Assembly (NCBI GenBank): GCA_036278595.1
Contig: DASUKS010000116.1
Coordinates: 1-44,639 of the forward strand
Source: Dehalococcoidia bacterium
GTDB lineage: Bacteria; Chloroflexota; Dehalococcoidia; DSTF01; JACRBR01
Reading direction: 5' to 3'
Length of the DNA: 44,639 bases
Shown here: in pieces, positions 24,532-39,635 of the stretch
Layout: each line of letters begins with the position of its first letter
Position numbering within the stretch: position 1 is the stretch's first letter
Translations under genes and position numbers: made by a program
Notes under the pieces: model-generated
What the model was told of the DNA's origin: nothing
The model's input: the letters and a program-made list of their open reading frames with translations, nothing else
Database searches by the model: none

Positions 24532-24591
24532 GGAGCGAGATTGGGCGGCCGGTCCGCCCGACCCGCTCCGTACTCGTCTTCGCTTCCTCCA

Positions 24592-24627
24592 CAGAGGACA
24601 CGACGAGAGCAGAGGACGCGACGAGAG
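24592..24627 (+). repeat. 18-bp tandem direct repeat directly upstream of sufC
   Basis: CAGAGGACACGACGAGAG (24592-24609) and CAGAGGACGCGACGAGAG (24610-24627), one mismatch. It runs into the sufC ribosome-binding region. Confidence 0.8.
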
Positions 24628-24634
24628 AGGATGC

Positions 24635-25420: not shown

Positions 25421-25422
25421 CC

Positions 25423-26853: not shown

Positions 26854-26935
26854 CGCGCCGGGCGCGCAGAACCTAAGACCAAGAACCGGTGCGACGGCCG
26901 CGGTGCGGTGCGACGCCGGATGAAGGACTGAGACA

Positions 26936-28318
26936 GTGACGCAGGACGTACTTACGGCGCCGGGGTTCACGCAGATCAGTGAACGGTCGGTCGAGGAGAT
27001 CGCGGCTCGTCGCGACGAGCCGGCGTGGCTGCGCGAGCAGCGGACGGCGGCGTGGCGGGCGTACGCGGCGATGGACTTCCCCGCGCTGACCGACGAGGAG
27101 TGGCGGCGCACCGACGTGCGCGCGATGACGTTCGAGGGCGTGCGCGCGCTGAGCGCATCGGCGCCCATCAGCGGGCCGGACCAGTTGCCGGAGACGCTGC
27201 GCGGCGCGTGGGAGCCCAGCGAGCGCTTCGCCGGCCGGCTCGTCCAGCACGATTCGGACGTTGTCTTCACGCAGCTGGCAGACGGCCTGCGGGCGAAGGG
27301 CGTCATCCTCAGCGACCTGCACACGGCGGCGCGCGAGCATCCGGACCTGGTGCGGAAGTACCTGTCGGTCGCGGTACCGGCGGACGAGTGGAAGTACCTG
27401 GCGTTGAACGCGGCCCTGTGGAGCGGCGGTTGCTTCCTGTACGTGCCGCGCGGCGTGCAGATCGAAGAGCCCGTGCAGCTTTCGACGCTTGTGGGCGCCG
27501 AGTCGCTCGGCGTGTTCCCGCACACGGTCATCATCGCCGAGGACGGGAGTCGCGTGGCGTTCATCGATGAGACGCTGTCGCCGGACCGGGAGCAGCGGAC
27601 ATTCGTCAGCGGCGCTGTCGAGATCTACGCGGGCGGCGGCGCCACCGTTGAGTACTACGCGGTGAACCGCTGGGGACGCGGCGTCTACAACTTCAACACC
27701 GTGCGCGCGCGCCTGGGGCGTGACGCGCAGTTCACCGCGATGGCGGTCGGCCTCGGTGCAACGATGACGAAGATGCGCATCGACACCGGCATGCCCGAGC
27801 CCGGCGCATCGGCGAAGCTGCTCGGGATCACGTTCGGCGACGGCGACCAGCACTTCGACTACAACACGCTGCAGGACCATGCCGGCGCGCACACGACGAG
27901 CGACCTGCAGTTCAAGTCGGCGATGACGGACAGCTCGTCGCTCGTGTGGTACGGGATCACGCGCATCGAGCCGACGGCGAGCGCGAGCGAGGCGAACCAG
28001 ACGTCGCGCAACCTGCTGCTCAGCGAGCACGCGAAGGCGGCGCCGATCCCGATCCTCGAGATCGAGGCATGGGACGTCACGAAGTGCAGCCACGGCGCCA
28101 CGGCGGGGCCGGTCGACGAGAACGAGTTGTTTTACCTGGAGGCGCGCGCGATCCCGCACGACGTCGCCGAGCGGATGCTCGTCGAGGGATTCTTCCGTGA
28201 CGTATTAGACCGCGTGCCCAGCGAACCGATGCGCGCGCGCCTGCTGCAGGCCGTGCTCGCGAAGGCGGGCGGCGGCACGGAGAGCCTCACGTACGACGAG
28301 TTGGTGGCGGCGGGCTAG
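26936..28318 (+). CDS. sufD: Fe-S cluster assembly protein SufD
   Basis: GTG start 8 nt after GAAGGA. 460 aa SufB/SufD-family beta-helix protein (LWSGGCFLYVPRGV, HGATAGPVDENELFYLEARAI) lacking the SufB Cys-rich N-terminus. Confidence 0.9.
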   Translation: MTQDVLTAPGFTQISERSVEEIAARRDEPAWLREQRTAAWRAYAAMDFPALTDEEWRRTDVRAMTFEGVRALSASAPISGPDQLPETLRGAWEPSERFAGRLVQHDSDVVFTQLADGLRAKGVILSDLHTAAREHPDLVRKYLSVAVPADEWKYLALNAALWSGGCFLYVPRGVQIEEPVQLSTLVGAESLGVFPHTVIIAEDGSRVAFIDETLSPDREQRTFVSGAVEIYAGGGATVEYYAVNRWGRGVYNFNTVRARLGRDAQFTAMAVGLGATMTKMRIDTGMPEPGASAKLLGITFGDGDQHFDYNTLQDHAGAHTTSDLQFKSAMTDSSSLVWYGITRIEPTASASEANQTSRNLLLSEHAKAAPIPILEIEAWDVTKCSHGATAGPVDENELFYLEARAIPHDVAERMLVEGFFRDVLDRVPSEPMRARLLQAVLAKAGGGTESLTYDELVAAG

Positions 28319-28330
28319 AGATCCGAGGCA

Positions 28331-28672
28331 ATGGCGATGAGCGAAGGGACGCAGAGCGACGTGGCGAACTTCGTACCGGTAGCGAAGACGAGCGAGATCC
28401 CGCCGGGACGGATCAACGTGTACGAGGTCGACGGCATTCGGATCGCGCTGTGCAACGTCAACGGGCGCTTCTATGCGATCGACGACGTGTGCACGCACGA
28501 CGGCGGGCCGCTGGACCAGGGCGTGCTCGAAGACAACCTCGTCGAGTGCCCGCGGCACGGTGCGAAGTTCGACGTGATCACCGGACGCGCGGTCGTGTTA
28601 CCCGCGGTGCGGCCCGTGCGCACGTACCCGCTCGAGATCGAGGGGGACGACGTGAAGGTGAGCGTCGACTGA
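28331..28672 (+). CDS. Rieske-type [2Fe-2S] ferredoxin
   Basis: 113 aa with CTHDGGPL and CPRHGAKF, the two Rieske ligand boxes (CxH...CxxH). Confidence 0.9.
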   Translation: MAMSEGTQSDVANFVPVAKTSEIPPGRINVYEVDGIRIALCNVNGRFYAIDDVCTHDGGPLDQGVLEDNLVECPRHGAKFDVITGRAVVLPAVRPVRTYPLEIEGDDVKVSVD

Positions 28673-29931
28673 TGACCTACGACATCGATCGGGTGCGGGC
28701 GGACTTCCCGATCCTCGAGCGGAAGGTGCACGGCAAGCCGCTCGTGTACCTGGACAACGCGGCGACGACGCAGAAGCCGCGGCAGGTGATCAACGCGCTC
28801 GTGCACTACTACGAGCACTACAACGCGAACATCCATCGCGGGCTGCACACGCTCGCGGAGGAAGCGACGGCGGCGTACGAGGCTTCGCGCGTGAAGGTCG
28901 GGCGCTTCATCGACGCGCCGCACCCCGAGCAGGAGATCATCTTCACCAGGAACACGACCGAGTCGATCAACCTCGTCGCGAACGCGTGGGGGCGGAAGTT
29001 CCTGCGGCCCGGCGATGAGATCCTGTTCTCGGCCATGGAGCATCACAGCAACCTGCTGCCGTGGCAGCTCATCGCGGCGGCGACCGGCGCGAAGCTGCGC
29101 TACATCGAGCTGGACGAGACCGGGCACCTGCTGTGGGACGATGCGGTCGCCAAGATCAACGAGCGCACGAAGGTCGTCGCCGTCACGCAGATGTCGAACG
29201 TGCTCGGCACGATCAACCCGGTGAAGGAGCTGGCCGCGCTCGCCCATCGCGCCGGGGCTGTCATGCTCGTCGATGGCGCGCAGAGCGTGCCGCATATGCC
29301 GGTCGACGTTCGGGACCTCGACTGCGACTTCCTGGCGTTTTCGGCGCACAAGATGCTCGGGCCGACCGGCGTCGGCGTGCTGTACGGCAAGCGCCACTTG
29401 CTCGACGCGATGGACCCGTTCCTGGGGGGCGGCGAGATGATCAGCCGCGTGACGTACGAGTCGAGCACGTACGCGGACTTGCCGCACAAGTTTGAAGCGG
29501 GGACGCCGAACATCGCCGACGTTATCGCCTTCGCGCCCGCTATCGACTACCTGGAGACGCTGGGGATGGGCGCCGTGCGCGAGCACGAGCGCGAGCTCAC
29601 CCAGTACGCGATCGATGCGCTGCGCGCGGTCGAGGGTGTGACGCTCTACGGGCCGCTGGACGCGACCGAGCGCGGCGGCGCCGTGACGTTCAACTACGGC
29701 GACCTGCACCCGCACGACCTGAGCCAGGTGCTCGACGCGGAAGGCATCGCGATCCGGGCGGGTCACCACTGCGCGCAGCCGCTGATGCGGGAGTTGGGCG
29801 TGGTCGCGACGGCCCGGGCCAGCTTCTATCTGTACAATCGAAGTGACGAAGTCGATGCGCTGACGAACGCGCTCGGCGCAGCGGACAGGATTTTCGGGAA
29901 TGCCAGCACAGCCAGAGCCGGTGCTCGATGA
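28672..29931 (+). CDS. sufS: Cysteine desulfurase SufS (group II)
   Basis: ATG 28672 overlaps the Rieske stop (TGATG). Contains YLDNAATTQKP, NIHRG.H.LA, FSAHKMLGPTGVGVLYG (PLP lysine) and RAGHHCAQPLM (catalytic Cys). Confidence 0.95.
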   Translation: MTYDIDRVRADFPILERKVHGKPLVYLDNAATTQKPRQVINALVHYYEHYNANIHRGLHTLAEEATAAYEASRVKVGRFIDAPHPEQEIIFTRNTTESINLVANAWGRKFLRPGDEILFSAMEHHSNLLPWQLIAAATGAKLRYIELDETGHLLWDDAVAKINERTKVVAVTQMSNVLGTINPVKELAALAHRAGAVMLVDGAQSVPHMPVDVRDLDCDFLAFSAHKMLGPTGVGVLYGKRHLLDAMDPFLGGGEMISRVTYESSTYADLPHKFEAGTPNIADVIAFAPAIDYLETLGMGAVREHERELTQYAIDALRAVEGVTLYGPLDATERGGAVTFNYGDLHPHDLSQVLDAEGIAIRAGHHCAQPLMRELGVVATARASFYLYNRSDEVDALTNALGAADRIFGNASTARAGAR

Positions 29932-30376
29932 GCTCTATCGAGAGCTGATCCTCGACCACTACAAGAACCCGCGGCACCACAAAACGCTGCCTTCGCCCGA
30001 CGTCACGGCCGAGGGCTACAACCCCGTCTGTGGCGACGAAGTGGCGATGCAGCTCGACTTCGAGGGCGACACGCTCGAGGACATCGGCCTGAACGGGCGC
30101 GGGTGCTCGATCAGCCAGGCATCCGGTTCGATGATGTCGGAGCTGGTGACGGGCAAGAGCATCGACGAGATCCGGCGGCTGAGCGCGGAGTTCACCGATA
30201 TGCTGCGCGAGCCGGACGCGCAGACGCCGGAGGATCTCGGCGACCTTGAGGCGCTGCAGGGCGTCGCGAAGTTCGCGGTGCGGGTGAAGTGTGCGACGTT
30301 GCCGTGGCGCACGCTGGAGGACGGGATCGCGCAGCACGAGCGCGGCGACGGCGACGTGCAGCACGAAGAGCTGTAG
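29900..30376 (+). CDS. sufU: SufU-type sulfur-transfer protein (IscU-like, Zn-dependent)
   Basis: Contains LYRELILDHYKNPRH, NPVCGDEV, GRGCSISQAS and VKCATLPW. ATG 29900 overlaps the sufS 3' end by 32 nt. An alternative GTG at 29921 would overlap by 11 nt. Confidence 0.9.
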   Translation: MPAQPEPVLDELYRELILDHYKNPRHHKTLPSPDVTAEGYNPVCGDEVAMQLDFEGDTLEDIGLNGRGCSISQASGSMMSELVTGKSIDEIRRLSAEFTDMLREPDAQTPEDLGDLEALQGVAKFAVRVKCATLPWRTLEDGIAQHERGDGDVQHEEL

Positions 30377-30488
30377 GCGGGGGAAGCGCCGGGAACCGAA
30401 AACTGCGGCAGCGCAACGAGCAGACACCAAGGGGCGCAGGAACGGCCGGGTGCCAAGTGAACAGACACCAGTACCAGGAGAGCAGGAC

Positions 30489-30809
30489 ATGAGTGTGCAG
30501 GGGTTGCTTTCAGACGAGTTGATCATGGAGCGGTTGAAGGATGTCTTCGACCCGGAGATCCACATGAGCATCGTCGAGCTCGGCCTCGTCTACGACGTGT
30601 CGGTCGAGGACGACGGCACGGTGGAGGTCCTCTACACGCTCACCAGCCCCGGTTGCCCGCTTGGGCCGATTATCGACGGACAGATCCAGGACGTGCTGGT
30701 GGACCTGCCGGGGGTGAAGCGCGTGAACGCGAAGCTCACGTTCTCGCCGCCGTGGGACCCGCGGACGATGGCGTCGGACGACGTGAAGATGCAGCTCGGG
30801 ATCTGGTAG
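30489..30809 (+). CDS. sufT: SufT / DUF59 (MIP18-family) Fe-S assembly protein
   Basis: Internal ATG of ORF 30291..30809. 106 aa with VFDPEIHMSIVELGLVY, TLTSPGCPL and WDP, typical of DUF59/PaaD-like proteins. Last gene of the suf cluster. Confidence 0.88.
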   Translation: MSVQGLLSDELIMERLKDVFDPEIHMSIVELGLVYDVSVEDDGTVEVLYTLTSPGCPLGPIIDGQIQDVLVDLPGVKRVNAKLTFSPPWDPRTMASDDVKMQLGIW

Positions 30810-30962: not shown

Positions 30963-32369
30963 CTAGCCGGACGCGATGAATTCCTCGCCGCTCGGTACCT
31001 GCACAATTGGTGCGAGCAGGTCGCCGGAGTCGAGGTCGAGGATACGGATCTCGCCGGGCCGCAGCAGCGCGACGGTGTTCGCCGTGAGCGGCGTGACGTC
31101 TGACCAGGTGCCGTCGACCGGGATCTTCCTGAAGTGCGACGGGTCGCGCTCGTCGTACACGATGACCCCGTTGACCTGGCCGGCGCCGATCGAGGTCGAG
31201 TAGGGGAGGAGGCGGTCGCCGCCGGACATGAGTTGCGCGTCGGTCACCGAGATGCGGTCGTCGCCGCCGAACGATGCCTCCGGATGGGTCGCCTCGCTGG
31301 TGCGCACGACTGCGTCCATGAACACGACGTAGTACTTGCCCGCGGCGTCGCGTCCCGCGTCGACTTCGCGCACGGTGCGCGGGCCACTTGGTCCGTCTTC
31401 GAGCGGCAGCTTTGCGACGGGCGACAAGACGTCGGTCGTGACGGTGCTGAGCTTTACCGTCTCCGATCCCTCGATCGCGCACATCGCAAGCACACCGCCG
31501 TCACTCGTCTTGAGCAACGACGGATAGGTGCAGGCGGACGGGAGTGGCAGAGTTCTCACCAGCACGCGTTGTTCGAGGTCGATCACGCCGACTGAGGCGT
31601 GCTGGCACATGACTCCATCACCCACACAGCCGGGTTCTGCCGGCACGATCCGGCCGTAGAAGAGGTAGCGCCCGTCGTCGCTGAGCTCGATCGATGGCGC
31701 GTACAGCGTCTCGACCGCGCGGTCGGGCATCGCGATGGTGCTCGGCGCCGCAGAGAGGTCATCGAGGTCGTAGATGCGGAGCGTCGGCGAAGTTACGGCC
31801 GGCCCGGGCCCGAACGCCTGCGCGACGAGCAACTGATGCGCGGACTGGCGTACGGCGACCCACGGCCGATAGCCGGCCTGTATCTCACCGAGCGTCGCGA
31901 GCGTCGATGGATCGAGCACCGTGATCTCACCCGAGTCCTGATTGATGGCGACGAGCGCGGCGGCATCACGTGCGGCATCGGCGATTGTGCGCGGCGGGCT
32001 GTCCGCGCGGCCGCTCGTGCGGAGCACACCCCATGCGAGCAGCGCGATGCCAATCGCCGCGAGCGCGAGCATGCTGCCGGCGGCCACGCGCGCGGGTGCG
32101 CCGAAGCCTTCGACGCGCCGGAGCAGGCCGAGCGGCGCGACAAGCCATGTGCGGCGCTCGGCCGTCGGCTGCCATGCGGCGGCTTCCTCTCGCGATGAGA
32201 CGCCGAGCTTGCCGAGGATCTGCGAGACGTGGAAGCGCGCCGTGGTGAACGATATCCCGAGCGCCTGCGCGATCTCGTCGTTCGTACGATGATCACGAAG
32301 CAGCGCGAGGACCTCCCATTCGCGTGGTGTCAGGATATCGGGGTGCTTCGGGCGTCCGCGTCCTCGCAT
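30963..32369 (-). CDS. Membrane-tethered LuxR/GerE-HTH regulator with propeller-like ectodomain, paralogue A
   Basis: 468 aa. HTH LTPREWEVLALLRDHRTNDEIAQALGISFTTARFHVSQILGKLGV. Single TM segment MLALAAIGIALLAWGVL. C-terminal 350 aa has repeated beta-strand motifs (SDDGRYLFY, TSDGGVLAM). Confidence 0.85.
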   Translation of the reverse strand: MRGRGRPKHPDILTPREWEVLALLRDHRTNDEIAQALGISFTTARFHVSQILGKLGVSSREEAAAWQPTAERRTWLVAPLGLLRRVEGFGAPARVAAGSMLALAAIGIALLAWGVLRTSGRADSPPRTIADAARDAAALVAINQDSGEITVLDPSTLATLGEIQAGYRPWVAVRQSAHQLLVAQAFGPGPAVTSPTLRIYDLDDLSAAPSTIAMPDRAVETLYAPSIELSDDGRYLFYGRIVPAEPGCVGDGVMCQHASVGVIDLEQRVLVRTLPLPSACTYPSLLKTSDGGVLAMCAIEGSETVKLSTVTTDVLSPVAKLPLEDGPSGPRTVREVDAGRDAAGKYYVVFMDAVVRTSEATHPEASFGGDDRISVTDAQLMSGGDRLLPYSTSIGAGQVNGVIVYDERDPSHFRKIPVDGTWSDVTPLTANTVALLRPGEIRILDLDSGDLLAPIVQVPSGEEFIASG

Positions 32370-32405
32370 GGACTCGATCGTACGCCAACGGTGGCGGAAT
32401 TACAC
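32370..32405 (-). promoter_or_regulatory. Candidate leaderless promoter of paralogue A
   Basis: Minus strand reads GTGTAA, 17 nt, TACGAT, 7 nt, ATG, with no SD. The same geometry and hexamers occur upstream of paralogue C. Confidence 0.4.
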
Positions 32406-32452
32406 CGGACGGTCGCCGAGCAGATACGTCACGACTTGAGCGCGATCGGCAG

Positions 32453-33943
32453 CTAGCGCTGAGCGCTGGTGGGCGCGGCGCTCGACGACACGATGACCAT
32501 GCTGCCGTCCGGCGTCCATTCGGCGTGCGAGCAGAAGCCGAACGCCGTGTTGAAGTCGCCGGCAGCCGGACGGATCGATGCGAGCTCGGTCCAGGTGAAG
32601 CCCGGCGCCTTGTTGGTGTTCGGTGTCGAGGGCGGCGTCTGCATGTCGAACAGCGCGCACCGCTGGCCGTTGTCCGCCCCGGTATACGCGATGGCGTAGC
32701 GTCCATTCGGTGAGATCGACACGACCGGACAGCACGATGAGCGGACGATCGATGGGACCGGCGCCGGTTGCCCGCCGAACAGCGGGACGAAGGTCTGGCT
32801 CGTATTGAACTGCGGGTCGACGTGACCGGCGCTGAACGTGACGAGCAGGCGGTTGGCGCCGGCCCACTGCGCCGACGACAGCTCGCCCTTGTAGCCGCTC
32901 CAGACGCGGTCGAACGACGCGCCCGGCACGGCGTACACCTCGAAGTCCGGCGGGTTATCGCAGCTCGCGACGGTGGGGGCGCACGGCGCCCGCCGCTCGA
33001 CCAGCAGGTACTTGCCGTCCGGCGACCACGGGTTCGGCGCCAGATCGATCAGGCTCTGGTCGTTGAAGTCCTGCTCGACCGCGGTGCCGCCTCCCGCGAA
33101 TCCGATCAGCCGTCCGACGGCGTGGTTGACGTAGATGACGCGCCCCGGATGGACGTTACCGCCCTTGTCGTATGTACCGAACGCGAGCCAGGCGATGGCG
33201 AGCCCGTCCGGGGCGAAGGCGAGGTGGCGGGCTCCGGTGAGAAACGTGCCTCCGCCGCCGTCAGGAAGCGCCGACACGATGTACTGATCGTCGGTGCGGC
33301 CGACGAGGACCGCCGAGCCATCGGGCACGGGCACGACGTCGCTCGTGAGGTTGCCCTGCGTCATCGGCGACTCGACGCGCTGTCCATCGAGACCGTACAC
33401 GCCGTAGCTTGCACCATCACCGCCCGCAAGAAACGTCTCGCCGGCCTTGAACCAGCGTGCATCCGGTGCGTCCCAGTCCACGGGCAGGCGCCGTGCGACG
33501 TGCGCGTTCAGGTCGAATAGCATCACGCTCGGGTGCGTGGTCTTCGCGTCTTCGACGCGCCAGGCGCCCGCGCCCGACGCGCCGCCGTCCGTCGTGAACA
33601 CGCCCCACGCGAGCAACGCGACGCCGACCGCGGCGAGCGCGACGACGCCGCCCGCGGCCACGCGCGCGGGCGCGCCGAAGCCTTCGATGCGGCGCAGCAG
33701 CCCGAGCGGCGCGAGGAGCCACGAGCGGCGTTCGGGCGGCGGCTGCCACGCGGCGGCGTCTTCCCGCGAGGTGACGTCGAGGCGCGCGAACAGCTCGGAG
33801 ATGTGGAACTTCACGCCGGCAAGGCTGAGGCCCAGGCGGGCGGCGATCTCGTCGTTGGTCAGCCCCTCGCGGACAAGATCCAGCACCTCCCACTGGCGTG
33901 GCGTCAGGATGTCGGGATGGCGTCGTCTGCCGCGCGATTTCAT
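32453..33943 (-). CDS. Membrane-tethered LuxR/GerE-HTH regulator with PD40/TolB-like ectodomain, paralogue B
   Basis: 496 aa. HTH LTPRQWEVLDLVREGLTNDEIAARLGLSLAGVKFHISELFARL. TM segment VVALAAVGVALLAWGVF. Ectodomain carries WSPDGKYLLV, SISPNGRYAIAY and EWTPDGSMVIV. Confidence 0.85.
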   Translation of the reverse strand: MKSRGRRRHPDILTPRQWEVLDLVREGLTNDEIAARLGLSLAGVKFHISELFARLDVTSREDAAAWQPPPERRSWLLAPLGLLRRIEGFGAPARVAAGGVVALAAVGVALLAWGVFTTDGGASGAGAWRVEDAKTTHPSVMLFDLNAHVARRLPVDWDAPDARWFKAGETFLAGGDGASYGVYGLDGQRVESPMTQGNLTSDVVPVPDGSAVLVGRTDDQYIVSALPDGGGGTFLTGARHLAFAPDGLAIAWLAFGTYDKGGNVHPGRVIYVNHAVGRLIGFAGGGTAVEQDFNDQSLIDLAPNPWSPDGKYLLVERRAPCAPTVASCDNPPDFEVYAVPGASFDRVWSGYKGELSSAQWAGANRLLVTFSAGHVDPQFNTSQTFVPLFGGQPAPVPSIVRSSCCPVVSISPNGRYAIAYTGADNGQRCALFDMQTPPSTPNTNKAPGFTWTELASIRPAAGDFNTAFGFCSHAEWTPDGSMVIVSSSAAPTSAQR

Positions 33944-34052
33944 GTGGCCTCGCGGCCTATCGTATCGCCTGCCGCGCAGCTATTGACCTAGCCGATACCT
34001 GTGCAATTCCTTCAGGTTTCAGGTGTGGCTGCCGGACGGAAGGCGGCGGCGA

Positions 34053-35960
34053 TCAATTTCCGCCGAACGAGAGCACGACTTCGCTGCTGTCCGCCGTCCA
34101 GTCGGCCATGTACGAAGCGGGATAGGCCAGCACCTGCACAGTGGCGCTCGTCGACAGGCTGACCAGTTGATTTCCGTTGACCGAGAACTCGCCGTCGGGT
34201 GAGATGCTGCCCAGCGGCGAGCGCGCCGGGTTGGAAACGAATGCTCTCAGTGCGGAGTTCAGGCTCCCGGGCGCGGCGGCACCGCCCGGGATGTCGATCA
34301 GCAGGCCTCTCGCGGGCGACGGCGTACCGTGTTCGTCGGTTCGCTCGACCTCGCTCAGCGCGAGGCGTCGCGCGCCCACCCACGCTGCGGCGTTTCCCGG
34401 CGCAGCGACCAAGTGTCCGGTCGAGAACACCGGAGCAGTGCCCGCGCTGGCCCCGGCGGCGAACACTTCGAACCGCAGCGAGCCGAACGGCGGGCAACTG
34501 GTGTTCGGTGCAGGGCCGCAGGAGGGGGGCAGCGTGCCGGTCGTCACGAGCAGGTAGTTCCCGTCGGAAGACCACGATAGCGGTTCGATATCGGACGCCC
34601 CTGTGCCGGCCGTGTTCTGCACGAGTACATAGCGTCCATCGGTAACCGGCGTCGTTGCGATGACGAGCGACTGCCGGCCGTTGTTCGTGTTGATGTACGC
34701 CGCGTGCTTGCCATCGGGCGAGAACGACGGCTGGCCGTTCACGCCGGGCGGCTGCGGGAAGTCGTGATCCTGGCCGGTCGCGACGTCGCGCACGAGGAAG
34801 CTGTAGATTCCGGCGGAAGGGATCTCGCGATCAACGAGGATCGTCCGTCCAGCGGGCGCCGGCGCCACGGCGCCGCCGATCGTACCGTCCTCCGGCGTCT
34901 TGAGGTCGATGGGCTGCAGCGCGGTTCCGTCGATATCGAAGATGACGAACGACTTGAGGTCGGTATCGTAGGCGACGAACGTCTTGCCGTCCTCGACCCA
35001 TTGCGCCTGCATGATGCGGTCCGCGGTGGGGATGATGCGGCAGTCGCCGGTCGCGCGGTCGACGATGACCGCGGCCATCGCCGGGCCGCCGCCGGCGGGC
35101 TGCGGCGGCGCACACGGCGGCCGCGGGCCACCGGCGAGCGCGGGGACATCCGGACCGCCGATGCGGACGGTCTGCGTCGAGAAGTCGCTGTCGAAACGTA
35201 CCTGCAGCCGCCACTCGCCGGCGGATGGCAGCTCGAAGCCGGTCACGAGGTAGACGCCGGGCAAGTCGACGCCGGGGCAGGCCGCCCCGGGACAGGTGAC
35301 GCACGTCACCGGTGCGGACAGGTGCTCGCCCGTGTCGACGTTGCCAGCCTGTACGACGTCCGGAAACTGCTGGACGGAAGGGAAGCCGGCGACGCAGCTG
35401 GTGGGCTCCGTGACGCGGAAGACGATTTTCAGGTTGCGGTCGCACAGTTGACCCGACGTGAGGTAGTCCTGCGAGAGGCCGAATCGCCAGAAGATCGGTG
35501 CCTCGCCGAGCTCGCGGGTCGACTCCCCGGCGCTCGCCGGTGCGCACGCGACCGGCGTGTTCGACACCGCCGCGCCGGCGTCCTGCGCGTCGGACCGCGG
35601 GCTGCCGGTCGTGAAGACGCCCCACGCGAGGAGGGCGATGCCGACCGCCGCGAGCGCGACGACGCCGCCGGCGGCCACGCGCGCAGGCGCGCCGACGCCT
35701 TCAATGCGGCGCAGCAGCCCGAGCGGCGCGAGGAGCCACGTGCGGCGTTCGGGCGGGGGCTGCCACGCGGCCGCCTCCTCGCGCGAGGTGACGGCGAGCT
35801 TGCCGAGGATCTCCGACACATGGAAGCGGGCGGTGGCCAGCGAGACGCCGAGCGCCGCCGCGATCTGCTCGTTGGTGCGCCGCTCGCGCAGGAGCGCCAG
35901 CACCTCCCACTCGCGCGGGGTGAGGATATCGGGGTGCTTCGGGCGGCCGCGGCCTGGCAT
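34053..35960 (-). CDS. Membrane-tethered LuxR/GerE-HTH regulator with Cys-rich plus PD40/TolB-like ectodomain, paralogue C
   Basis: 635 aa. HTH LTPREWEVLALLRERRTNEQIAAALGVSLATARFHVSEILGKL. TM segment VVALAAVGIALLAWGVF. A Cys-rich insert of about 170 aa is followed by FSPDGKHAAYI, WSSDGNYLLV and ISPDGEFSV. Confidence 0.85.
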   Translation of the reverse strand: MPGRGRPKHPDILTPREWEVLALLRERRTNEQIAAALGVSLATARFHVSEILGKLAVTSREEAAAWQPPPERRTWLLAPLGLLRRIEGVGAPARVAAGGVVALAAVGIALLAWGVFTTGSPRSDAQDAGAAVSNTPVACAPASAGESTRELGEAPIFWRFGLSQDYLTSGQLCDRNLKIVFRVTEPTSCVAGFPSVQQFPDVVQAGNVDTGEHLSAPVTCVTCPGAACPGVDLPGVYLVTGFELPSAGEWRLQVRFDSDFSTQTVRIGGPDVPALAGGPRPPCAPPQPAGGGPAMAAVIVDRATGDCRIIPTADRIMQAQWVEDGKTFVAYDTDLKSFVIFDIDGTALQPIDLKTPEDGTIGGAVAPAPAGRTILVDREIPSAGIYSFLVRDVATGQDHDFPQPPGVNGQPSFSPDGKHAAYINTNNGRQSLVIATTPVTDGRYVLVQNTAGTGASDIEPLSWSSDGNYLLVTTGTLPPSCGPAPNTSCPPFGSLRFEVFAAGASAGTAPVFSTGHLVAAPGNAAAWVGARRLALSEVERTDEHGTPSPARGLLIDIPGGAAAPGSLNSALRAFVSNPARSPLGSISPDGEFSVNGNQLVSLSTSATVQVLAYPASYMADWTADSSEVVLSFGGN

Positions 35961-35996
35961 GGGCCCGATCGTACGCGAAAGATCGCCGAATTACAC
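35961..35996 (-). promoter_or_regulatory. Candidate leaderless promoter of paralogue C
   Basis: Minus strand reads GTGTAA, 17 nt, TACGAT, 7 nt, ATG, with no SD. Conserved with 32370-32405. Confidence 0.4.
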
Positions 35997-36069
35997 TAGC
36001 CGCGGGCCGGAGGGGCGAGGAGGTAGGAGCGAGGAGCGTGAGGGGGCGTCAGATTCGGCCCCCGGCGCG

Positions 36070-36792
36070 CTACGAGCGCGGGTCCGAGGACATCATCGAC
36101 GCCGGCTCCCGCTCTTCGAGGTGGCCGTCTTCGAGCCAGACGATGCGGTCCGCGTACTTCAGCACGCGGTGGTCGTGGCTCACCATCAGCACCGCTGTGC
36201 CCATGTCGTGCGCGATCATCTGGAGCATCGACATCACCTCCGCGCCGCGGATGCCATCGAGACTCGCCGTCGGCTCATCGGCGAGGATGACGGCCGGGTT
36301 GTTGACGACCGCGCGGGCGATGGCGACGCGCTGACGTTCGCCGCCGCTCAGCGTCTTGATGCGCGCGTCCTTGCGGTGCGACAGGCCGAGGATCGAGAGC
36401 AGCTCCGTCGCGCGGGCGCTGGCTGACCTGCCGGGCATGCGGGCCTTGCGCAGCACGAGCTCGAGGTTCTGCAGCACCGTGAGCGACGACAGCAGGTTGA
36501 ACTCCTGGAAGACGAAGCCGATCGTGCGGAGCCGCACCTCCGCGAGCCGGCGCTCGCTCAGCGACGAAAGCGGCGTGCCGGCGACGATCACCTCACCCGA
36601 GGTGGGCTTGCGCAGCGCGCCGGCAATCGTCAGGAGCGTCGATTTGCCCGCGCCGGACGGCCCCATGATGATGACGACCTGGCGCGCCGGGATCTGGAGC
36701 GAGACGGACTTCATCGCGTGCGTCGGGTTGTCCTTCGCGCCGAACGTCTGGCTGACGTCGACGAGCTCGAGGACGGCGTCGCTGGTCGCCAT
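36070..36792 (-). CDS. ABC transporter ATP-binding protein (MacB/LolD-type)
   Basis: Walker A GPSGAGKST, Q-loop FVFQEFNLL, signature LSGGERQRVAIARA, Walker B ILADEPTASLD, H-loop VSHD. Starts 3 nt after the permease stop. Confidence 0.93.
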   Translation of the reverse strand: MATSDAVLELVDVSQTFGAKDNPTHAMKSVSLQIPARQVVIIMGPSGAGKSTLLTIAGALRKPTSGEVIVAGTPLSSLSERRLAEVRLRTIGFVFQEFNLLSSLTVLQNLELVLRKARMPGRSASARATELLSILGLSHRKDARIKTLSGGERQRVAIARAVVNNPAVILADEPTASLDGIRGAEVMSMLQMIAHDMGTAVLMVSHDHRVLKYADRIVWLEDGHLEEREPASMMSSDPRS

Positions 36793-36795
36793 GGC

Positions 36796-37905
36796 CTACC
36801 CCTTGAACGCGATCGCAGGATCGACGGAGCCGACGCGACGCGCCGGGACGATCGCCGCGCCCGCGGCCATGACGACGGTGGTGATGAGCACGAAGAGCAC
36901 GTCCTTCGCGCGGGTGTACACAATGAGTTGCGGGACGAGGCGCTGGGCGAACGGGCTGACCGCGAGCGTGAGTGCGACGCCGAAGACGAAGCCGACGACG
37001 CCGGTGATCATGCTCTGCACCAGCACCAGGCGGTAGAGGTCGAAGTTGTTGAATCCGATCGCCTTCATGACCCCGAACTCGCGCGCGCGCTCGATCGTCG
37101 CGGTGTAGATCGTCAGGCTGGTGATCGCGATGCCGACGATGAAGGCCAGCCCGACGATGAGGCCGATGATCGGGATGACGCTATCGAGGATCCGATGCCG
37201 TGTCGCCTGTGCGAACTCGTGTGAGCTGAAGACGGTGACGCCGGGGAGCGTGTCCTGCAGATCAGACCGCAGATGCGCCTGTGAGCCGCCGGGCTTCGTG
37301 CTGTACGTCCAGAACGTGACGAAGCCGGGCATATCCAGCAGGCTGCGCGCTGAGTCGAGGCTCACGAACGACGCCTGCGTGAAGGCGAAGTTGCCACCGC
37401 TGGTAATGCCGGTGACCTTGAACGACGTCTTGCCGCTCGTCAGCGTGTCGCCGATGCCGAGACCGGCGATGCGGGCGAGCGTCGAGTCGAGCACGATCTC
37501 TCCCGGCCCCGGATTCCCCTTGCCCTTCGTGATCTTCGGCGGCCCGCCGACGCCGGTCGTCTCGTCGTACCCGACGAGCTGGATATCGACGTTCTTTCCG
37601 TCGTGCTGGAACTGCATCGGCCGCACGATGAGCGGCGAGACGCTCTGCACGTCCGGGTGGTTGGCGATCTGCTGCCCCATCGAGTCGGGGAGGATCGATG
37701 CGGCTGCGATGAAGTCGTTCGTGCCCTGGCGGACGACCCATCCGTCGGCGTTGACGTCCTCGACGAAGCTGCCGACCTTCTGGTTCCACCCCTGGTACAT
37801 CCCGATGAGGATCGTGATGAGGAACACCGCGAAGCCGATGCCCGCCGCGGAGAACGCGAAGCGTGTGCGTTCGGTGATGAGGTTGCGCAGCGCGAGCTCG
37901 ATCAC
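36796..37905 (-). CDS. ABC transporter permease, FtsX/MacB family (DevC-like)
   Basis: 369 aa. TM1, then an extracytoplasmic domain of about 200 aa, then three C-terminal TM segments with the FtsX-type motif ERAREFGVMKAIGF. The GTG start overlaps the patatin stop (GTGA). Confidence 0.88.
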   Translation of the reverse strand: MIELALRNLITERTRFAFSAAGIGFAVFLITILIGMYQGWNQKVGSFVEDVNADGWVVRQGTNDFIAAASILPDSMGQQIANHPDVQSVSPLIVRPMQFQHDGKNVDIQLVGYDETTGVGGPPKITKGKGNPGPGEIVLDSTLARIAGLGIGDTLTSGKTSFKVTGITSGGNFAFTQASFVSLDSARSLLDMPGFVTFWTYSTKPGGSQAHLRSDLQDTLPGVTVFSSHEFAQATRHRILDSVIPIIGLIVGLAFIVGIAITSLTIYTATIERAREFGVMKAIGFNNFDLYRLVLVQSMITGVVGFVFGVALTLAVSPFAQRLVPQLIVYTRAKDVLFVLITTVVMAAGAAIVPARRVGSVDPAIAFKG

Positions 37906-39635
37906 GCGGTCCTCGCGTAGGGCATGACGGCCGCGAACCGCTCGCGCGCGGCGAGGATGGCACGCTCGCCCTCGATGGCAATCGCCTCGCCATGACGGAA
38001 GTCGCGAATGCCGCCACGGTCGATCGACACCTCAACCGTGACGTCGGCCTGTTCGTTGCTCATCTCGGAGATGCGGTTGTTCATGATCTCGAACGTCCTC
38101 GAAATGGTCTCGACGGCGAACGGGCGCGACGGCCGCACGTCGAGCTGCTCGCGCGGGGAGGTGTGCTTGCCGGTGAGCCGCACGCCGATGACGACGCCCG
38201 CGCCGAGCTCGCGGCACTGCGCGACGGGCACGGGGTTGAGCACCGCGCCATCGACCAGGTAGCTGCCGTTCGCGGGGACGGGCGGATACACGCCGGGGAG
38301 CGCCATGCTGGCCATGATACAGGGCCAGAGCACGCCGGAGGTGAAGGTCACCGCGGATCTCCGGAAGAGGTCGGTGGCGACGAGCGCCAGCGGTATGTCG
38401 AGATCCTCGAACCGGCGTTCGCCGGCGATCTGCTTGAGCGCGTCGCGTATGCCGCGGTTGCTCAGGAACGAGCGGAGCGGGAGCGTCGGCCGGACGGCGC
38501 GCGAGCTGACGCGCTCGACCGCCTCGGTCAGTTCCTGGACGGACAGGCCGGCCGCGCGCCCGGCGGCGATCGCGGAGCCGATGCTGCAGCCCGTGATGAC
38601 ATCGATCGGCAGCCGGAGCTCGTCGAGCGCGCGCAGGACGCCGAGATGGGCGAGACCCTTCGCCGCACCGGCGCCGAGCGCGACGCCGACCGTGCGGTGC
38701 GTCATGGTGCGGGCAAGCCTCGCGACGGGAGCGTTCGGTCCTCCTGCGCCGGCATCGGGCGGCAGGACGGCGATGACCGGGCTGCCCCAGATGGAGGTGA
38801 GCTGTCGCAGCTCCGGCTGCGTCCACGGGCGGTAGGCGACGACAGCCACGCGAAGCCCTTCCGCCGCGCGGAGTTCGCCGGGTGTGCGCGCGACCTGCAG
38901 CAGCTCGGCGCCCGCCGCCTCGATGTCGCTGAGTGGGGCGTCGGTGAGCACCAGCGCATGCGCGTACTCGTGGCCGAAGCCAACGAGCATCGCGGGGAGC
39001 TCGACGAGTTCCGGTTGCTCGATGCGGCGGACGGTGACCCGCCGATCTTCGACGAGGTGCGCACGGGCGGCGGCGGCGAGCGCTTCGCCGACGACGAGCA
39101 CGAGGACGCGCCCGACTCCGGTGGCCGCGATCTCCTTGGGCAGCGCAGCGATCGCCGGGATGTCTTCGCTGCGGCAGAAGATGACGTGCGAGGCGACGCC
39201 GTGGCGTGCCATCAGCCGCTCGTTCGCCCGCTTGAGCCGCCCCGCGAGGATGCTGGAGAGCGCTTCGACGAGCCGTATCCGCAGGTCGCCGACACCCACG
39301 AGCGCATCGCGGTCGATGGCGTGCGAGCGGACGGGGGTGAGCGCCACCACGCTGGCCGAAGCCGGTTCGCCCGTGAGCAGGGACATCTCGCCGATACACT
39401 CGCCGCTGCCCAGACGGCCCAGCTCGCGGCGCTCGCCCGATGGCGTGGTCGCGACCACGGTCGCAACGCCCTCGGAGATCACCTGAAACGGCGGCTCGAT
39501 CGTGCCCTGCGCGACCAGCACCTCCCCGGGGGCGAACGCGCGCTCGGTCATGAATGTGCGGAGGTCTGCCCACTCGCGCTGCGAGAGGAGTTGGGGGAGC
39601 GTACTGGCCGGTGCCCAGGGCTTGATGTCCTGCAA
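37902..39635 (-). CDS. Cyclic-nucleotide-binding domain / patatin-like phospholipase fusion protein
   Basis: 577 aa, TTG start. N-terminal CAP_ED-type motif FAPGEVLVAQG...LGSGECIGEMSLLTGEPASASVVA. C-terminal patatin motifs are the oxyanion GAGAAKG, the nucleophile GCSIG (GxSxG) and DGAVLNPVP (catalytic Asp). Confidence 0.88.
   Translation of the reverse strand: MQDIKPWAPASTLPQLLSQREWADLRTFMTERAFAPGEVLVAQGTIEPPFQVISEGVATVVATTPSGERRELGRLGSGECIGEMSLLTGEPASASVVALTPVRSHAIDRDALVGVGDLRIRLVEALSSILAGRLKRANERLMARHGVASHVIFCRSEDIPAIAALPKEIAATGVGRVLVLVVGEALAAAARAHLVEDRRVTVRRIEQPELVELPAMLVGFGHEYAHALVLTDAPLSDIEAAGAELLQVARTPGELRAAEGLRVAVVAYRPWTQPELRQLTSIWGSPVIAVLPPDAGAGGPNAPVARLARTMTHRTVGVALGAGAAKGLAHLGVLRALDELRLPIDVITGCSIGSAIAAGRAAGLSVQELTEAVERVSSRAVRPTLPLRSFLSNRGIRDALKQIAGERRFEDLDIPLALVATDLFRRSAVTFTSGVLWPCIMASMALPGVYPPVPANGSYLVDGAVLNPVPVAQCRELGAGVVIGVRLTGKHTSPREQLDVRPSRPFAVETISRTFEIMNNRISEMSNEQADVTVEVSIDRGGIRDFRHGEAIAIEGERAILAARERFAAVMPYARTA

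What the first reader, a model, noticed from the sequence alone, without database searches (positions are those of the whole stretch)
30963..35960. Three tandem paralogues of a membrane-tethered LuxR/GerE regulator with divergent propeller-like ectodomains
Three co-directional genes (468, 496 and 635 aa) share one plan. Each has an N-terminal LuxR/GerE-type HTH of about 65 aa (LTPREWEVLALL..TN..IA..LG.S..T.RFHVS.ILGKL), a Pro/Arg-rich linker and one strongly hydrophobic helix (VAAGGVVALAAVGIALLAWGV). This is followed by 350-520 aa that are mutually divergent. These C-terminal regions carry repeated strand motifs of the PD40/TolB-propeller type: SPDGKYLLV, SPDGKHAAYI, SSDGNYLLV, SPNGRYAIAY, TPDGSMVIV, SDDGRYLFY. 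With the HTH at the extreme N-terminus, the only sensible topology is HTH in the cytoplasm and propeller outside. That makes it a ToxR/CadC-like transmembrane one-component regulator built on a GerE output domain. I am not aware of a characterised member with this architecture. A constant output module fused to three different sensors suggests three extracytoplasmic cues converging on one DNA-binding specificity.
Basis: partly seen in the sequence, partly recalled or inferred. Interest (0 to 1): 0.72.

Follow-up and report, generated by a model that had tools for sequence, protein, structure and literature searches.

The report
Membrane-tethered LuxR-type regulators with propeller sensors
Three neighbouring genes in an uncultured Chloroflexota (Dehalococcoidia) genome encode DNA-binding proteins anchored in the membrane with an outward-facing propeller "antenna"; they belong to a large, uncharacterised family whose genes nearly all carry the same 11-base promoter motif, which hints that the proteins control their own genes.

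Summary
Three minus-strand genes (468, 496 and 635 aa) each encode an N-terminal GerE/NarL-type HTH, a short conserved linker, one transmembrane helix and a large all-beta C-terminal region.

The predicted structures are beta-propellers. C635 is TolB/PD40-like and follows an unassigned beta-sandwich. A468 is a YVTN/amine-dehydrogenase-like propeller, not PD40. B496 is a distant PD40-type relative of C635.

These are not isolated genes.
- The N-terminal module defines a Chloroflexota family with about 800 clusters at 50% identity.
- A scan of species-representative genomes found 245 loci, with many paralogues per genome and frequent tandem arrays.
- Propellers are the commonest ectodomain type.
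- Topology (HTH inside, sensor outside) is supported by the positive-inside rule and by even cysteine counts in 72 of 84 ectodomains.

New here: almost every family gene has a leaderless-type promoter with the box TAGTGTAATTC, 14 nt upstream of a TAnnnT -10 element. The box is nearly exclusive to the family. A468 and C635 have it. B496 has lost it, together with its RGRP arm and canonical recognition helix.

My best reading is signal-controlled, probably autoregulated, transmembrane one-component regulators. A published census already counts GerE-type transmembrane regulators, but I found no characterised member. I rate this a new variant of a known kind, of moderate interest.

The parts
34053..35960 (-). 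C635: gene for GerE-HTH + TM + beta-sandwich + TolB/PD40-like propeller (635 aa)
   Evidence: ORF. GerE E 2.8e-13 and PD40 21.0 bits. AlphaFold2 plus Foldseek give TolB, E 2e-8. Orthologues P0122 (49%) and P0123 (52%).
32453..33943 (-). B496: gene for GerE-HTH (diverged arm and recognition helix) + TM + PD40-type propeller (496 aa)
   Evidence: ORF. GerE E 1.1e-14; PD40 21.8-23.4 bits. 26% identical to C's propeller, E 7e-7. Orthologues P0148 (54%) and L021 (43%) keep the canonical HTH. No structure was predicted for B.
30963..32369 (-). A468: gene for GerE-HTH + TM + YVTN/amine-dehydrogenase-like propeller (468 aa)
   Evidence: ORF. GerE E 1.8e-14; weak TIGR02276 YVTN repeat at aa 142-170. 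AlphaFold2 pLDDT 68.5, pTM 0.70; Foldseek finds the aromatic amine dehydrogenase heavy chain, E 5e-9, TM 0.52. Identical to NCBI protein P0137, named 'helix-turn-helix transcriptional regulator [Dehalococcoidia bacterium]'.
35763..35960 (-). C635 cytoplasmic DNA-binding module (aa 1-66): RGRP arm + four-helix GerE/NarL-type HTH
   Evidence: Pfam GerE aa 12-65. Closest solved structures are the LiaR, VraR and NarL DNA-binding domains. R4, G5, R6 and P7 are at least 90% conserved in 83 family members.
33746..33943 (-). B496 DNA-binding module (aa 1-66), derived: RGRR arm, recognition helix GVKFHISELFARLD
32172..32369 (-). A468 DNA-binding module (aa 1-66), canonical
35616..35684 (-). C635 transmembrane helix (about aa 93-115, VAAGGVVALAAVGIALLAWGV)
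   Evidence: Kyte-Doolittle 19-residue mean 2.27; it is the only peak above 1.6.
33599..33667 (-). B496 transmembrane helix (about aa 93-115)
   Evidence: Kyte-Doolittle 19-residue mean 2.26.
32025..32093 (-). A468 transmembrane helix (about aa 93-115)
   Evidence: Kyte-Doolittle 19-residue mean 2.13.
35160..35435 (-). C635 membrane-proximal cysteine-containing all-beta domain (about aa 176-267; the conserved 'FWRFGL' block lies just N-terminal to this range, in the region AlphaFold2 modelled at low confidence); no known family
   Evidence: Beta-strands at model residues 58-149. Conserved in P0122, P0123, P0124 and in the A-type orthologue P0139. No Pfam or PDB sequence match.
34056..35075 (-). 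C635 six-bladed TolB/PD40-like propeller (about aa 296-635)
   Evidence: 24 strands in the model. Top Foldseek hits are TolB. TIGR02800 TolB E 1.4e-5.
32456..33589 (-). B496 extracytoplasmic region (aa 119-496), PD40-type propeller by homology to C
30966..32015 (-). A468 extracytoplasmic region (aa 119-468), 6-7-bladed propeller with four invariant cysteines
35988..35998 (-). Family promoter box TAGTGTAATTC upstream of C635 (perfect match)
35968..35973 (-). Putative -10 hexamer TACGAT of C635, 14 nt after the box and 7 nt before the ATG (leaderless-type)
32397..32407 (-). Family promoter box variant CGGTGTAATTC upstream of A468 (2 mismatches)
32377..32382 (-). Putative -10 hexamer TACGAT of A468, 14 nt after the box and 7 nt before the ATG
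33944..34052 (-). C-B intergenic region: no family box; contains GGTCAA-N18-TACGAT and a GAGG Shine-Dalgarno-like element 4 nt before B's ATG
   Evidence: No canonical promoter or terminator was detected.

Best explanation
The three genes are paralogous members of a large family specific to Chloroflexota (mostly Dehalococcoidia). The family consists of single-pass transmembrane one-component transcription regulators.

Each protein has these parts, in order:
- a cytoplasmic DNA-binding head of about 66 aa, made of an invariant AT-hook-like RGRP arm and a NarL/GerE-type four-helix HTH;
- a conserved juxtamembrane linker of about 27 aa;
- one Gly/Ala-rich TM helix;
- a probably disulfide-bonded extracytoplasmic beta-propeller that acts as the sensor. 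A has a YVTN/amine-dehydrogenase-like propeller. B has a PD40-type propeller. C has a beta-sandwich followed by a TolB/PD40-like propeller.

Shown in silico: the architecture, the topology indicators, the folds, and the size and spread of the family. Also shown: family genes are standalone units transcribed from a leaderless-type promoter. Its -35 region is replaced by a highly conserved asymmetric box, G-N2-TAGTGTAATTC, followed by N14 and TAnnnT.

Inferred: the box is the operator read by the family's own HTH, with the RGRP arm lying in the AATT minor groove. This would make the genes autoregulated. Binding of an extracellular ligand to the propeller would change the activity of the head. 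That could happen through TM or juxtamembrane-driven oligomerisation at the membrane, as in ToxR/CadC. It could also happen through proteolytic release of the head.

The sign of regulation, the ligands and the wider regulon are unknown. In this window A468 and C635 keep the box and the canonical head. B496 has lost the box, the RGRP arm and the canonical recognition helix together. B may be expressed by read-through from C or from its own Shine-Dalgarno-containing transcript.
For: Architecture. GerE lies above the Pfam cut-off in all three proteins. Each has a single TM helix. The nearest solved HTH domains are LiaR, VraR and NarL. The ectodomains fold as propellers.

Topology. Across 84 members, K+R is 2.13 on the N-terminal side versus 1.10 on the C-terminal side (p 2e-9). 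Ectodomain cysteine counts are even in 72 of 84. Four cysteines are invariant in the A-type ectodomain.

Family.
- About 800 clusters at 50% identity match the HTH+linker+TM profile at E <= 1e-30, with the module at residues 1 to about 130 of proteins of 150-860 aa.
- 245 loci were found in species-representative genomes; the 80 listed are almost all Chloroflexota MAGs. One MAG has at least 7 loci, and tandem arrays occur in 9 other loci.
- Of 83 full-length members, 82 have GerE, 32 PD40, 18 DPPIV_N, 6 BNR/Ycf48-like and 6 WD40.

Promoter box.
- The position matrix from 74 genes has 1.4-2.0 bits at 11 consecutive positions. The spacing to TAnnnT is 14 nt in 62 of 74 genes, and the -10 element ends 6-11 nt before the start codon. 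No other conserved element lies within 60 nt upstream.
- In 917 kb of fetched loci, 72-74 of 78 box hits lie directly upstream of family genes.
- In a motif-first scan of metagenomes, 17 of 18 hits on contigs with GC >= 0.62 start a family gene.
- The window holds only two hits, one at C and one at A.

Link between the box and the protein's own head.
- Box mismatches correlate with deviations in the arm residues RGRP..PD (Spearman 0.51, p 1e-6) but not with other conserved residues.
- A subfamily with a one-residue-shorter arm carries the box variant TAGGGTAATTC and coexists with the canonical type in the same MAGs.
- B496 lost the box, the arm and the canonical helix together. Its orthologues P0148 and L021 keep the canonical head, and L021 keeps the box.
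Against: No experiment or protein-DNA model links the HTH to the box. The covariation evidence is not corrected for shared descent, because promoter and coding region are duplicated together.

The box is centred near -34. That position is more typical of a -35 element or a repressor site than of a classical class II activator. A dedicated sigma factor or a separate master regulator could therefore read it.

GerE-type domains usually bind inverted repeats as dimers, whereas this box is asymmetric and single.

Very few non-family genes carry the box: L143 (PhzF-like) and a secreted protein in L015. The family therefore has no visible regulon. No conserved partner or target gene lies next to family genes.

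Model confidence is modest (pLDDT 61 and 68). B's ectodomain was not modelled. The leaderless transcription starts are inferred from spacing only.
Confidence: 0.6

Rival explanations
1. The proteins are membrane-tethered GerE regulators as described, but their HTH is not what reads the conserved box. In this rival, the box is the -35 element of a dedicated alternative sigma factor, or the site of a separate soluble master regulator that switches the whole receptor family on or off. The family's own HTH would bind different, still unknown targets.
For: The box sits exactly where a -35 element sits (about -37 to -27, 17 nt from the -10 if GTGTAA is taken as the hexamer). It is asymmetric, as sigma-region-4 sites are. 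TM-less, Arg-rich-tailed soluble paralogues carrying the same box exist in several MAGs (L052, L064, L078). These could be such a master factor. No regulon of non-family genes with the box is visible.
Against: The -10 element is the housekeeping TAnnnT type, not an ECF-type CGT motif. Box variants follow paralogue subfamilies within a single genome rather than following genomes. Box decay goes with decay of the same gene's arm or helix, most clearly in B496. The box is 11-14 bp long, longer than a usual -35 element.
Confidence: 0.25
2. The primary role of the proteins is extracytoplasmic: a membrane-anchored binding protein or enzyme built on a propeller. In this rival, the N-terminal HTH serves only as a negative autoregulator and membrane anchor that keeps the protein's own synthesis in check. 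No external signal is passed to other genes.
For: The box is almost exclusive to family genes, and its position over the -35 region suits repression. Propellers of these types (TolB, DPP-IV N-terminal domain, amine dehydrogenase, lactonase, Ycf48) often act as binding or catalytic scaffolds. No target genes are conserved nearby.
Against: No catalytic domain accompanies the propellers in A, B or C. Complete members with only HTH+TM and almost no ectodomain exist (L030, 141 aa; L054, 118 aa; L081, 115 aa), as do soluble forms. Both argue that the head is the conserved functional core. Similar propellers are fused to Ser/Thr kinases and to OmpR-type transmembrane regulators, which are signalling contexts. 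At least two non-family genes sit behind box promoters.
Confidence: 0.12
3. The ORFs are annotation artefacts or decaying pseudogenes in a high-GC MAG contig.
For: High-GC DNA yields many long spurious ORFs. One related locus, L003, is visibly frameshifted.
Against: Codon-position GC pattern is typical of coding DNA (GC3 0.83-0.88 versus GC2 0.51-0.56). Every paralogue has full-length orthologues at 43-66% identity. The N-module is under strong purifying selection, with 96% identity at second codon positions versus 60% at third positions for A against C. The predicted folds are confident enough to be recognised as propellers.
Confidence: 0.02

Closest known systems
ToxR / TcpP / CadC-type transmembrane one-component regulators
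   Same: Bitopic topology: an N-terminal cytoplasmic DNA-binding domain, one TM helix and a C-terminal extracytoplasmic sensor, with no phosphorelay. This class is defined and counted in the census of transmembrane transcription regulators (TTRs) (PMC10269533).
   Different: Their DNA-binding domain is the OmpR-type winged helix (Trans_reg_C), whereas here it is a GerE/NarL-type four-helix HTH with no Trans_reg_C match. The linker is much shorter, about 27 aa; from my own knowledge, the ToxR and CadC linkers are about 50-70 aa. The sensor is a beta-propeller. The genes carry a family-wide promoter box.
Uncharacterised Trans_reg_C + TM + PD40/TolB-propeller regulators (for example IL1819, 665 aa, in the TTR census; P0130 and P0136 here)
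   Same: The same sensor type (PD40/TolB propeller) is fused through one TM helix to an N-terminal DNA-binding domain.
   Different: They use a different DNA-binding superfamily and occur in different phyla. I found no evidence there of a shared promoter box or of large tandem expansions.
NarL/FixJ/LiaR/VraR response-regulator output domains and GerE
   Same: These are the closest sequence relatives of the HTH (E 5e-8 to 1e-5 against the LiaR, VraR, NarL, ComA and GerE structures).
   Different: There is no receiver domain. The HTH is at the N-terminus, not the C-terminus. It is preceded by an RGRP arm and followed by a TM helix.
Membrane-spanning LuxR-type regulators expanded in Coriobacteriia (for example Eggerthella) - recalled from memory, apart from the census statement that Coriobacteriia are enriched in TTRs
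   Same: A lineage-specific expansion of LuxR/GerE regulators that sit in the membrane.
   Different: As I recall, those have a multi-pass N-terminal membrane sensor and a C-terminal HTH. Here the HTH is N-terminal, there is one TM helix and the sensor is a large soluble ectodomain. This was not tested here.
ECF sigma / anti-sigma modules
   Same: Many paralogues per genome, an extracytoplasmic sensor domain beyond one TM helix, promoters with a conserved -35-region motif and (inferred) autoregulation. The HTH is related to sigma region 4 (Sigma70_r4_2 hits in 60 of 83 members, best E 1.5e-8).
   Different: It is one polypeptide rather than two. There is no sigma region 2 and no anti-sigma domain. 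GerE scores far better than sigma region 4. The -10 element is of the housekeeping type.
Ser/Thr kinases with extracellular beta-propeller sensors (PD40 or NHL type)
   Same: The nearest non-family relatives of the C635 propeller are PD40 propellers fused through a TM helix to Pkinase domains (P0127, P0129, P0134, P0135).
   Different: The output is a kinase rather than a DNA-binding domain.

Membership tests
LuxR/GerE HTH superfamily (Pfam PF00196) | Four-helix HTH matching the GerE model above the gathering threshold | tested here: met
   49.7-54.2 bits against a 23.5-bit cut-off in A, B and C; 82 of 83 family members match.
Transmembrane transcription regulators (TTRs, as defined in PMC10269533) | A DNA-binding domain plus at least one transmembrane region in one protein | tested here: met
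   GerE domain plus one hydrophobic helix (Kyte-Doolittle 19-residue mean 2.1-2.3). TM prediction is by hydropathy only; no dedicated predictor was available.
Transmembrane transcription regulators (TTRs) | DNA-binding domain in the cytoplasm and sensor outside; regulates transcription from the membrane | not testable with these tools
   Indirect support only: the positive-inside bias and even cysteine counts. It needs PhoA/LacZ fusions and DNA-binding assays.
ToxR/CadC family | OmpR-type winged-helix DNA-binding domain (Trans_reg_C, PF00486) at the N-terminus | tested here: not met
   No Trans_reg_C hit at E <= 1 in any of the three proteins. They resemble ToxR/CadC in topology but are not members.
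NarL/FixJ response regulators | N-terminal receiver (Response_reg) domain with a phospho-acceptor Asp | tested here: not met
   No Response_reg hit. NCBIfam response-regulator models match only their C-terminal approximately 55 residues and score far below their cut-offs.
PD40 / TolB-type beta-propeller | PD40 repeats (PF07676) and a six-bladed TolB-like fold | tested here: inconclusive
   B scores 21.8-23.4 bits and C 21.0 bits against a 20.9-bit cut-off. The C model (pLDDT 61) best matches TolB, but with low TM-scores of 0.27-0.37. A has no PD40 hit and has a different propeller type. No model was made for B.
ECF sigma factors | Sigma region 2 plus region 4 | tested here: not met
   Only sub-threshold region-4 hits (20-24 bits, below the cut-offs) and no region 2.
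Anti-sigma factors (single-pass, ectodomain-bearing) | N-terminal anti-sigma domain (zf-HC2 or RskA type) | tested here: not met
   No such Pfam or NCBIfam hit. The N-terminus is a GerE HTH.
The Chloroflexota 'RGRP-HTH-TM' family delineated here (unnamed) | N-terminal M-x(1-2)-RGRP-x-HPDILTPREWEVL ... (K/R)(Y/F)HVSEIL-x-KLGV ... AAAW module followed by a TM helix at about aa 85-110 | tested here: met
   A and C match fully. B matches with a derived arm and helix.
The Chloroflexota 'RGRP-HTH-TM' family delineated here (unnamed) | Promoter box TAGTGTAATTC-N14-TAnnnT ending 6-11 nt before the start codon | tested here: met
   C has a perfect box and A a box with 2 mismatches. B does not meet this feature (8 mismatches).

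The most novel reading that the evidence does not exclude
The family is a self-contained receptor system peculiar to Chloroflexota. Dozens of divergent extracellular propeller 'antennae' per genome would all be wired to one monomeric DNA-reading head, made of an AT-hook arm plus a GerE HTH related to sigma region 4. That head would occupy the -35 position of a dedicated leaderless promoter class, in place of (or together with) sigma region 4. In function this would be an ECF sigma/anti-sigma pair collapsed into a single membrane protein. It would have subfamily-specific arm/box pairs that insulate parallel channels.
Probability: 0.15. Interest if true: 0.75.

Novelty: new variant of a known kind. 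Interest (0 to 1): 0.5.

Why it matters
Transmembrane one-component regulators are understood almost entirely from a few OmpR-type examples (ToxR, TcpP, CadC). GerE-type members are the third largest class in the census, yet I found none that has been characterised.

This family offers an unusually tractable entry point.
- It has a compact head of about 66 aa.
- It has a candidate operator of about 14 bp that is conserved across about 80 loci and can be tested directly.
- It has natural variants of arm and box.
- It has a menu of propeller sensors.

It also bears on how little-studied, mostly uncultured Dehalococcoidia sense their surroundings, and on leaderless promoter architecture in that phylum. 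If autoregulation by a monomeric HTH-plus-arm at the -35 position is confirmed, that would be a new way for a LuxR-type domain to engage a promoter.

Tried and rejected
Searches that returned nothing useful:
- Exact-sequence look-ups of C635 and of the neighbouring ABC ATPase found nothing on record. The look-up of A468 returned only a 3-kb Logan contig. The window's own annotation was therefore not retrievable.
- The first N-module word-based search returned only short metagenomic fragments of 214 aa or less, which wrongly suggested a family of mini-proteins. The genome scan and the exhaustive profile search corrected this.
- The TTR census supplements could not be searched for the exact 'GerE,PD40' architecture, because commas are not searchable and the phrase found nothing. 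I cannot say whether that exact combination is listed there.
- The C635 membrane-proximal domain has no Pfam or PDB sequence relative. The best match is an Ig domain at E 1.1, which is not significant.
- The sigma-70 promoter and terminator consensus scan of the locus was uninformative.

Ideas rejected:
- A conserved partner or target gene next to family genes. The best non-family neighbour cluster occurs in only 9 of about 80 loci and is a generic ABC transporter.
- A site-2 protease or other signalling partner in the window. None was found.
- A second half-site or inverted repeat near the box. None lies within 60 nt upstream.
- Recent gene conversion as the reason for N-module similarity. 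Third-codon positions are only 56-65% identical, and the box-to-(-10) spacers are unconserved.

Chance or irrelevant hits:
- The PDB hit to a designed Kelch protein (7onh) is a chance repeat match.
- The three top hits of the profile search (P0140-P0142, 2854-7703 aa) are multi-HTH giant proteins and not family members.

Full report
**1. The observation**

ORF listing shows three co-directional minus-strand ORFs at 30963-32369 (A468), 32453-33943 (B496) and 34053-35960 (C635). They have the codon-position GC pattern of real genes in this DNA of about 67% GC.

Pfam places a GerE/LuxR HTH at aa 12-65 of all three, at 50-54 bits against a 23.5-bit cut-off. NCBIfam gives only partial, sub-threshold matches to the C-terminal output domains of NarL-type response regulators. 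It finds no receiver domain.

Each protein has exactly one strongly hydrophobic segment, at aa 95-113, with a 19-residue Kyte-Doolittle mean of 2.1-2.3.

The first 118 aa are 67-81% identical between paralogues, while third-codon positions are only 56-65% identical. The resemblance therefore reflects purifying selection on an old duplication, not recent conversion.

The C-terminal regions have diverged. B and C align at 26% identity (E 7e-7). A matches neither.

**2. The ectodomains**

AlphaFold2 with shallow alignments gave all-beta models. C635 scored pLDDT 60.8. A468 scored pLDDT 68.5 and pTM 0.70.

- C635. Foldseek against the PDB returns TolB proteins first (E 2e-8). This agrees with borderline PD40 hits and a TIGR02800 TolB hit.
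- A468. Foldseek returns the seven-bladed aromatic amine dehydrogenase heavy chain, the lactonase PpgL, NirF and hydrazine synthase beta (E 5e-9, TM about 0.52). This agrees with a weak YVTN-repeat hit. A is therefore a propeller, but not a PD40 propeller.
- C635 also carries a membrane-proximal, cysteine-containing beta-sandwich of about 110 aa, associated with a conserved 'FWRFGL' block. It has no Pfam or PDB sequence relative. The same domain precedes the A-type propeller in the orthologue P0139. Ectodomain modules have therefore been shuffled or lost.
- B496 was not modelled. Its assignment rests on PD40 hits and on homology to C.

**3. Topology**

No topology predictor was available, so I used family statistics on 84 full-length members.

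- The 15 residues before the TM helix carry 2.13 K+R on average, against 1.10 after it (59 proteins versus 8; Wilcoxon p 2e-9).
- The number of ectodomain cysteines is even in 72 of 84 members.
- Four cysteines are invariant among the A-type orthologues.

These are the signatures of an N-in protein with a disulfide-bonded external domain. This is indirect evidence.

**4. The family**

The window is an NCBI MAG contig labelled Dehalococcoidia bacterium. A468 is deposited there as a generic 'helix-turn-helix transcriptional regulator'.

A profile of the HTH+linker+TM module was run against 1.84 billion cluster representatives. It finds about 800 clusters at E <= 1e-30. The module lies at residues 1 to about 130 of proteins with a median length of about 420 aa.

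A scan of one genome per species finds 245 loci. The 80 listed are almost all Chloroflexota/Dehalococcoidia MAGs, with several to many paralogues per genome and tandem arrays in nine further loci.

Of 83 full-length members, 82 have GerE. Propellers of several kinds are the commonest ectodomains: PD40 in 32, DPPIV_N in 18, BNR/Ycf48-like in 6 and WD40 in 6.

Each window paralogue has its own orthologues elsewhere:
- A: P0138 (66%) and P0139 (49%);
- B: P0148 (54%) and L021 (43%);
- C: P0122 (49%) and P0123 (52%).

The three ectodomain types are therefore old and individually conserved.

In three related contigs a family gene lies convergent to the end of the SUF operon, as in the window. Across the family there is no conserved neighbour. 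The window itself holds no obvious signalling partner.

**5. A family-specific promoter box (not part of the original finding)**

Upstream of A468, C635 and their orthologues I noticed GTGTAATTC about 14 nt before a TACGAT hexamer, which itself ends 7 nt before the ATG. Across the fetched loci the pattern is general:
- G-N2-TAGTGTAATTC, with 1.4-2.0 bits at each of 11 positions;
- then 14 nt (62 of 74 genes) of unconserved spacer;
- then TAnnnT;
- then 6-11 nt to the start codon.

This is a leaderless-type promoter whose -35 region, roughly -40 to -27, is occupied by the box. Nothing else is conserved within 60 nt upstream.

The box is nearly exclusive to the family.
- In 917 kb of loci, 72-74 of 78 hits with at most one substitution sit directly before family genes. 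By my own rough estimate for this base composition, about four hits would be expected by chance, which accounts for most of the rest.
- In the 44.6-kb window the only two hits are those at C and A.
- In a motif-first scan of metagenome contigs, 17 of the 18 hits on high-GC contigs start a family gene. The low-GC hits are chance matches followed by short ORFs.
- Two non-family genes do sit behind well-formed box promoters: a PhzF-like gene (L143) and a secreted protein with a normal leader (L015).

**6. What reads the box?**

The family head has an invariant RGRP motif immediately before the HTH. From general knowledge, RGRP is the AT-hook core, and an arm of this kind (GRPR) precedes the HTH of Hin recombinase and lies in the minor groove. 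The box has an invariant AATT core. The match between the two is inference, not a test.

Three observations tie the box to the protein encoded just downstream.
- Box mismatches correlate with deviations in the arm residues (Spearman 0.51, p 1e-6). The correlation is weak for the recognition helix (0.20) and absent for other conserved residues.
- A subfamily with a one-residue-shorter arm (M-x-RGRP, LLTPREQEV) carries TAGGGTAATTC. It coexists in the same MAGs with the canonical arm/box pair. Variants therefore follow the paralogue, not the genome.
- B496 has lost the box and at the same time changed RGRP to RGRR and HVSEILGKLA to HISELFARLD. Its orthologues keep the canonical head, and L021 keeps the box.

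All three observations are confounded by shared descent, because promoter and coding region duplicate together. I therefore treat autoregulation as the leading hypothesis, at roughly even odds, and not as a result.

The position of the box suits a repressor site or a replacement for the -35 element as well as it suits activation. The sign of regulation is open. The main rival is a dedicated sigma factor or a soluble master regulator. TM-less, Arg-rich-tailed paralogues with the same box exist and could play that role.

**7. Comparison with what is known**

In topology the proteins work like ToxR/CadC. They are not members of that family, because the winged-helix domain is absent.

They meet the census definition of transmembrane transcription regulators. 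In that census GerE is the third most frequent DNA-binding domain and PD40 is a recurrent sensor, mostly fused to Trans_reg_C (PMC10269533).

The closest sequence relatives of the HTH are response-regulator output domains (LiaR, VraR, NarL). Here the domain is N-terminal and there is no receiver.

The nearest non-family relatives of the C635 propeller are fused to Ser/Thr kinases and to OmpR-type regulators, which are signalling contexts.

Five literature searches found no characterised member and no description of the box. The library is incomplete, so this is absence of evidence.

**8. Verdict**

The novelty claim should be tempered. This is a new variant of a known, catalogued kind (a GerE-type TTR), and it belongs to a large lineage-specific family rather than being a one-off.

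The added value lies in three things: the delineation of the family, its propeller repertoire, and the strikingly conserved promoter box with its possible arm/box recognition code. The box hypothesis is directly testable with a 70-aa peptide and a 20-bp oligonucleotide.

Noticed in passing
window 35988-35998(-) and 32397-32407(-); loci L001-L086 upstream of family genes: There is a family-specific promoter box, TAGTGTAATTC-N14-TAnnnT, ending 6-11 nt before the start codon (leaderless-type). It is conserved at about 74 of 84 family genes and is almost absent elsewhere.
   Followed up: yes
window 33944-34052 and B496 aa 1-66 (33746-33943): B496 alone lacks the box and has a Shine-Dalgarno-like GAGG. 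Its arm (RGRR) and recognition helix (HISELFARLD) have diverged, while its orthologues stay canonical. This suggests that promoter and head are lost or changed together.
   Followed up: partly
L143:278-320 (+) and L015:11437-11560 (+): Two non-family genes lie behind well-formed box promoters: a leaderless PhzF-like isomerase, and a signal-peptide-bearing secreted protein with a leader of about 60 nt and a Shine-Dalgarno sequence. They are possibly the first regulon members.
   Followed up: partly
L052:6001-6402, L064:6001-6342, L078:6001-6333 (also P0102, P0103): These are short TM-less paralogues (110-133 aa) with the same head and box and a conserved Arg-rich tail ('APSAS...RRIAA'). They could be soluble family members or master regulators. 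A conserved frameshift is not excluded.
   Followed up: partly
window 24380-30809 (+); L002, L003, L005: A SUF Fe-S assembly operon (SufC, SufB/D, Rieske, SufS, SufU, SufT-like) ends convergently against the family gene(s). This holds in the window and in three related contigs that carry different paralogue types. It may be shared ancestry or a functional link; which one is unknown.
   Followed up: partly
C635 aa ~150-270 (window ~35150-35510); P0122, P0123, P0124, P0139: This membrane-proximal, cysteine-containing beta-sandwich domain, associated with the 'FWRFGL' block, has no Pfam or PDB relative. It precedes a PD40 propeller in C-type proteins and a YVTN-type propeller in the A-type orthologue P0139, but it is absent from A468 and B496. 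That pattern indicates domain shuffling or loss.
   Followed up: partly
window 36070-39635 (-): Directly upstream of C635, on the same strand, lie a MacB-type ABC transporter (ATPase plus MacB_PCD/FtsX permease) and a cNMP-binding patatin-like phospholipase. This arrangement is not conserved next to the orthologues.
   Followed up: partly
P0140, P0141, P0142 (profile search hits): These giant proteins (2854-7703 aa) contain 10-20 GerE-like HTH repeats. They topped the profile search through summed scores and are unrelated to the family.
   Followed up: no
window 17448-20345 (+) and 43146-44501 (-): The window also holds a full three-domain LigD (phosphoesterase, ligase and primase-polymerase) and a GSDH-type glucose/sorbosone dehydrogenase, which is another beta-propeller protein.
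   Followed up: no
L003 (ERZ25039574 contig_100499): This related contig has many fragmented genes, including the family gene (split into 356 + 173 aa) and the SUF genes. That pattern is typical of an error-rich assembly rather than of real pseudogenes.
   Followed up: no
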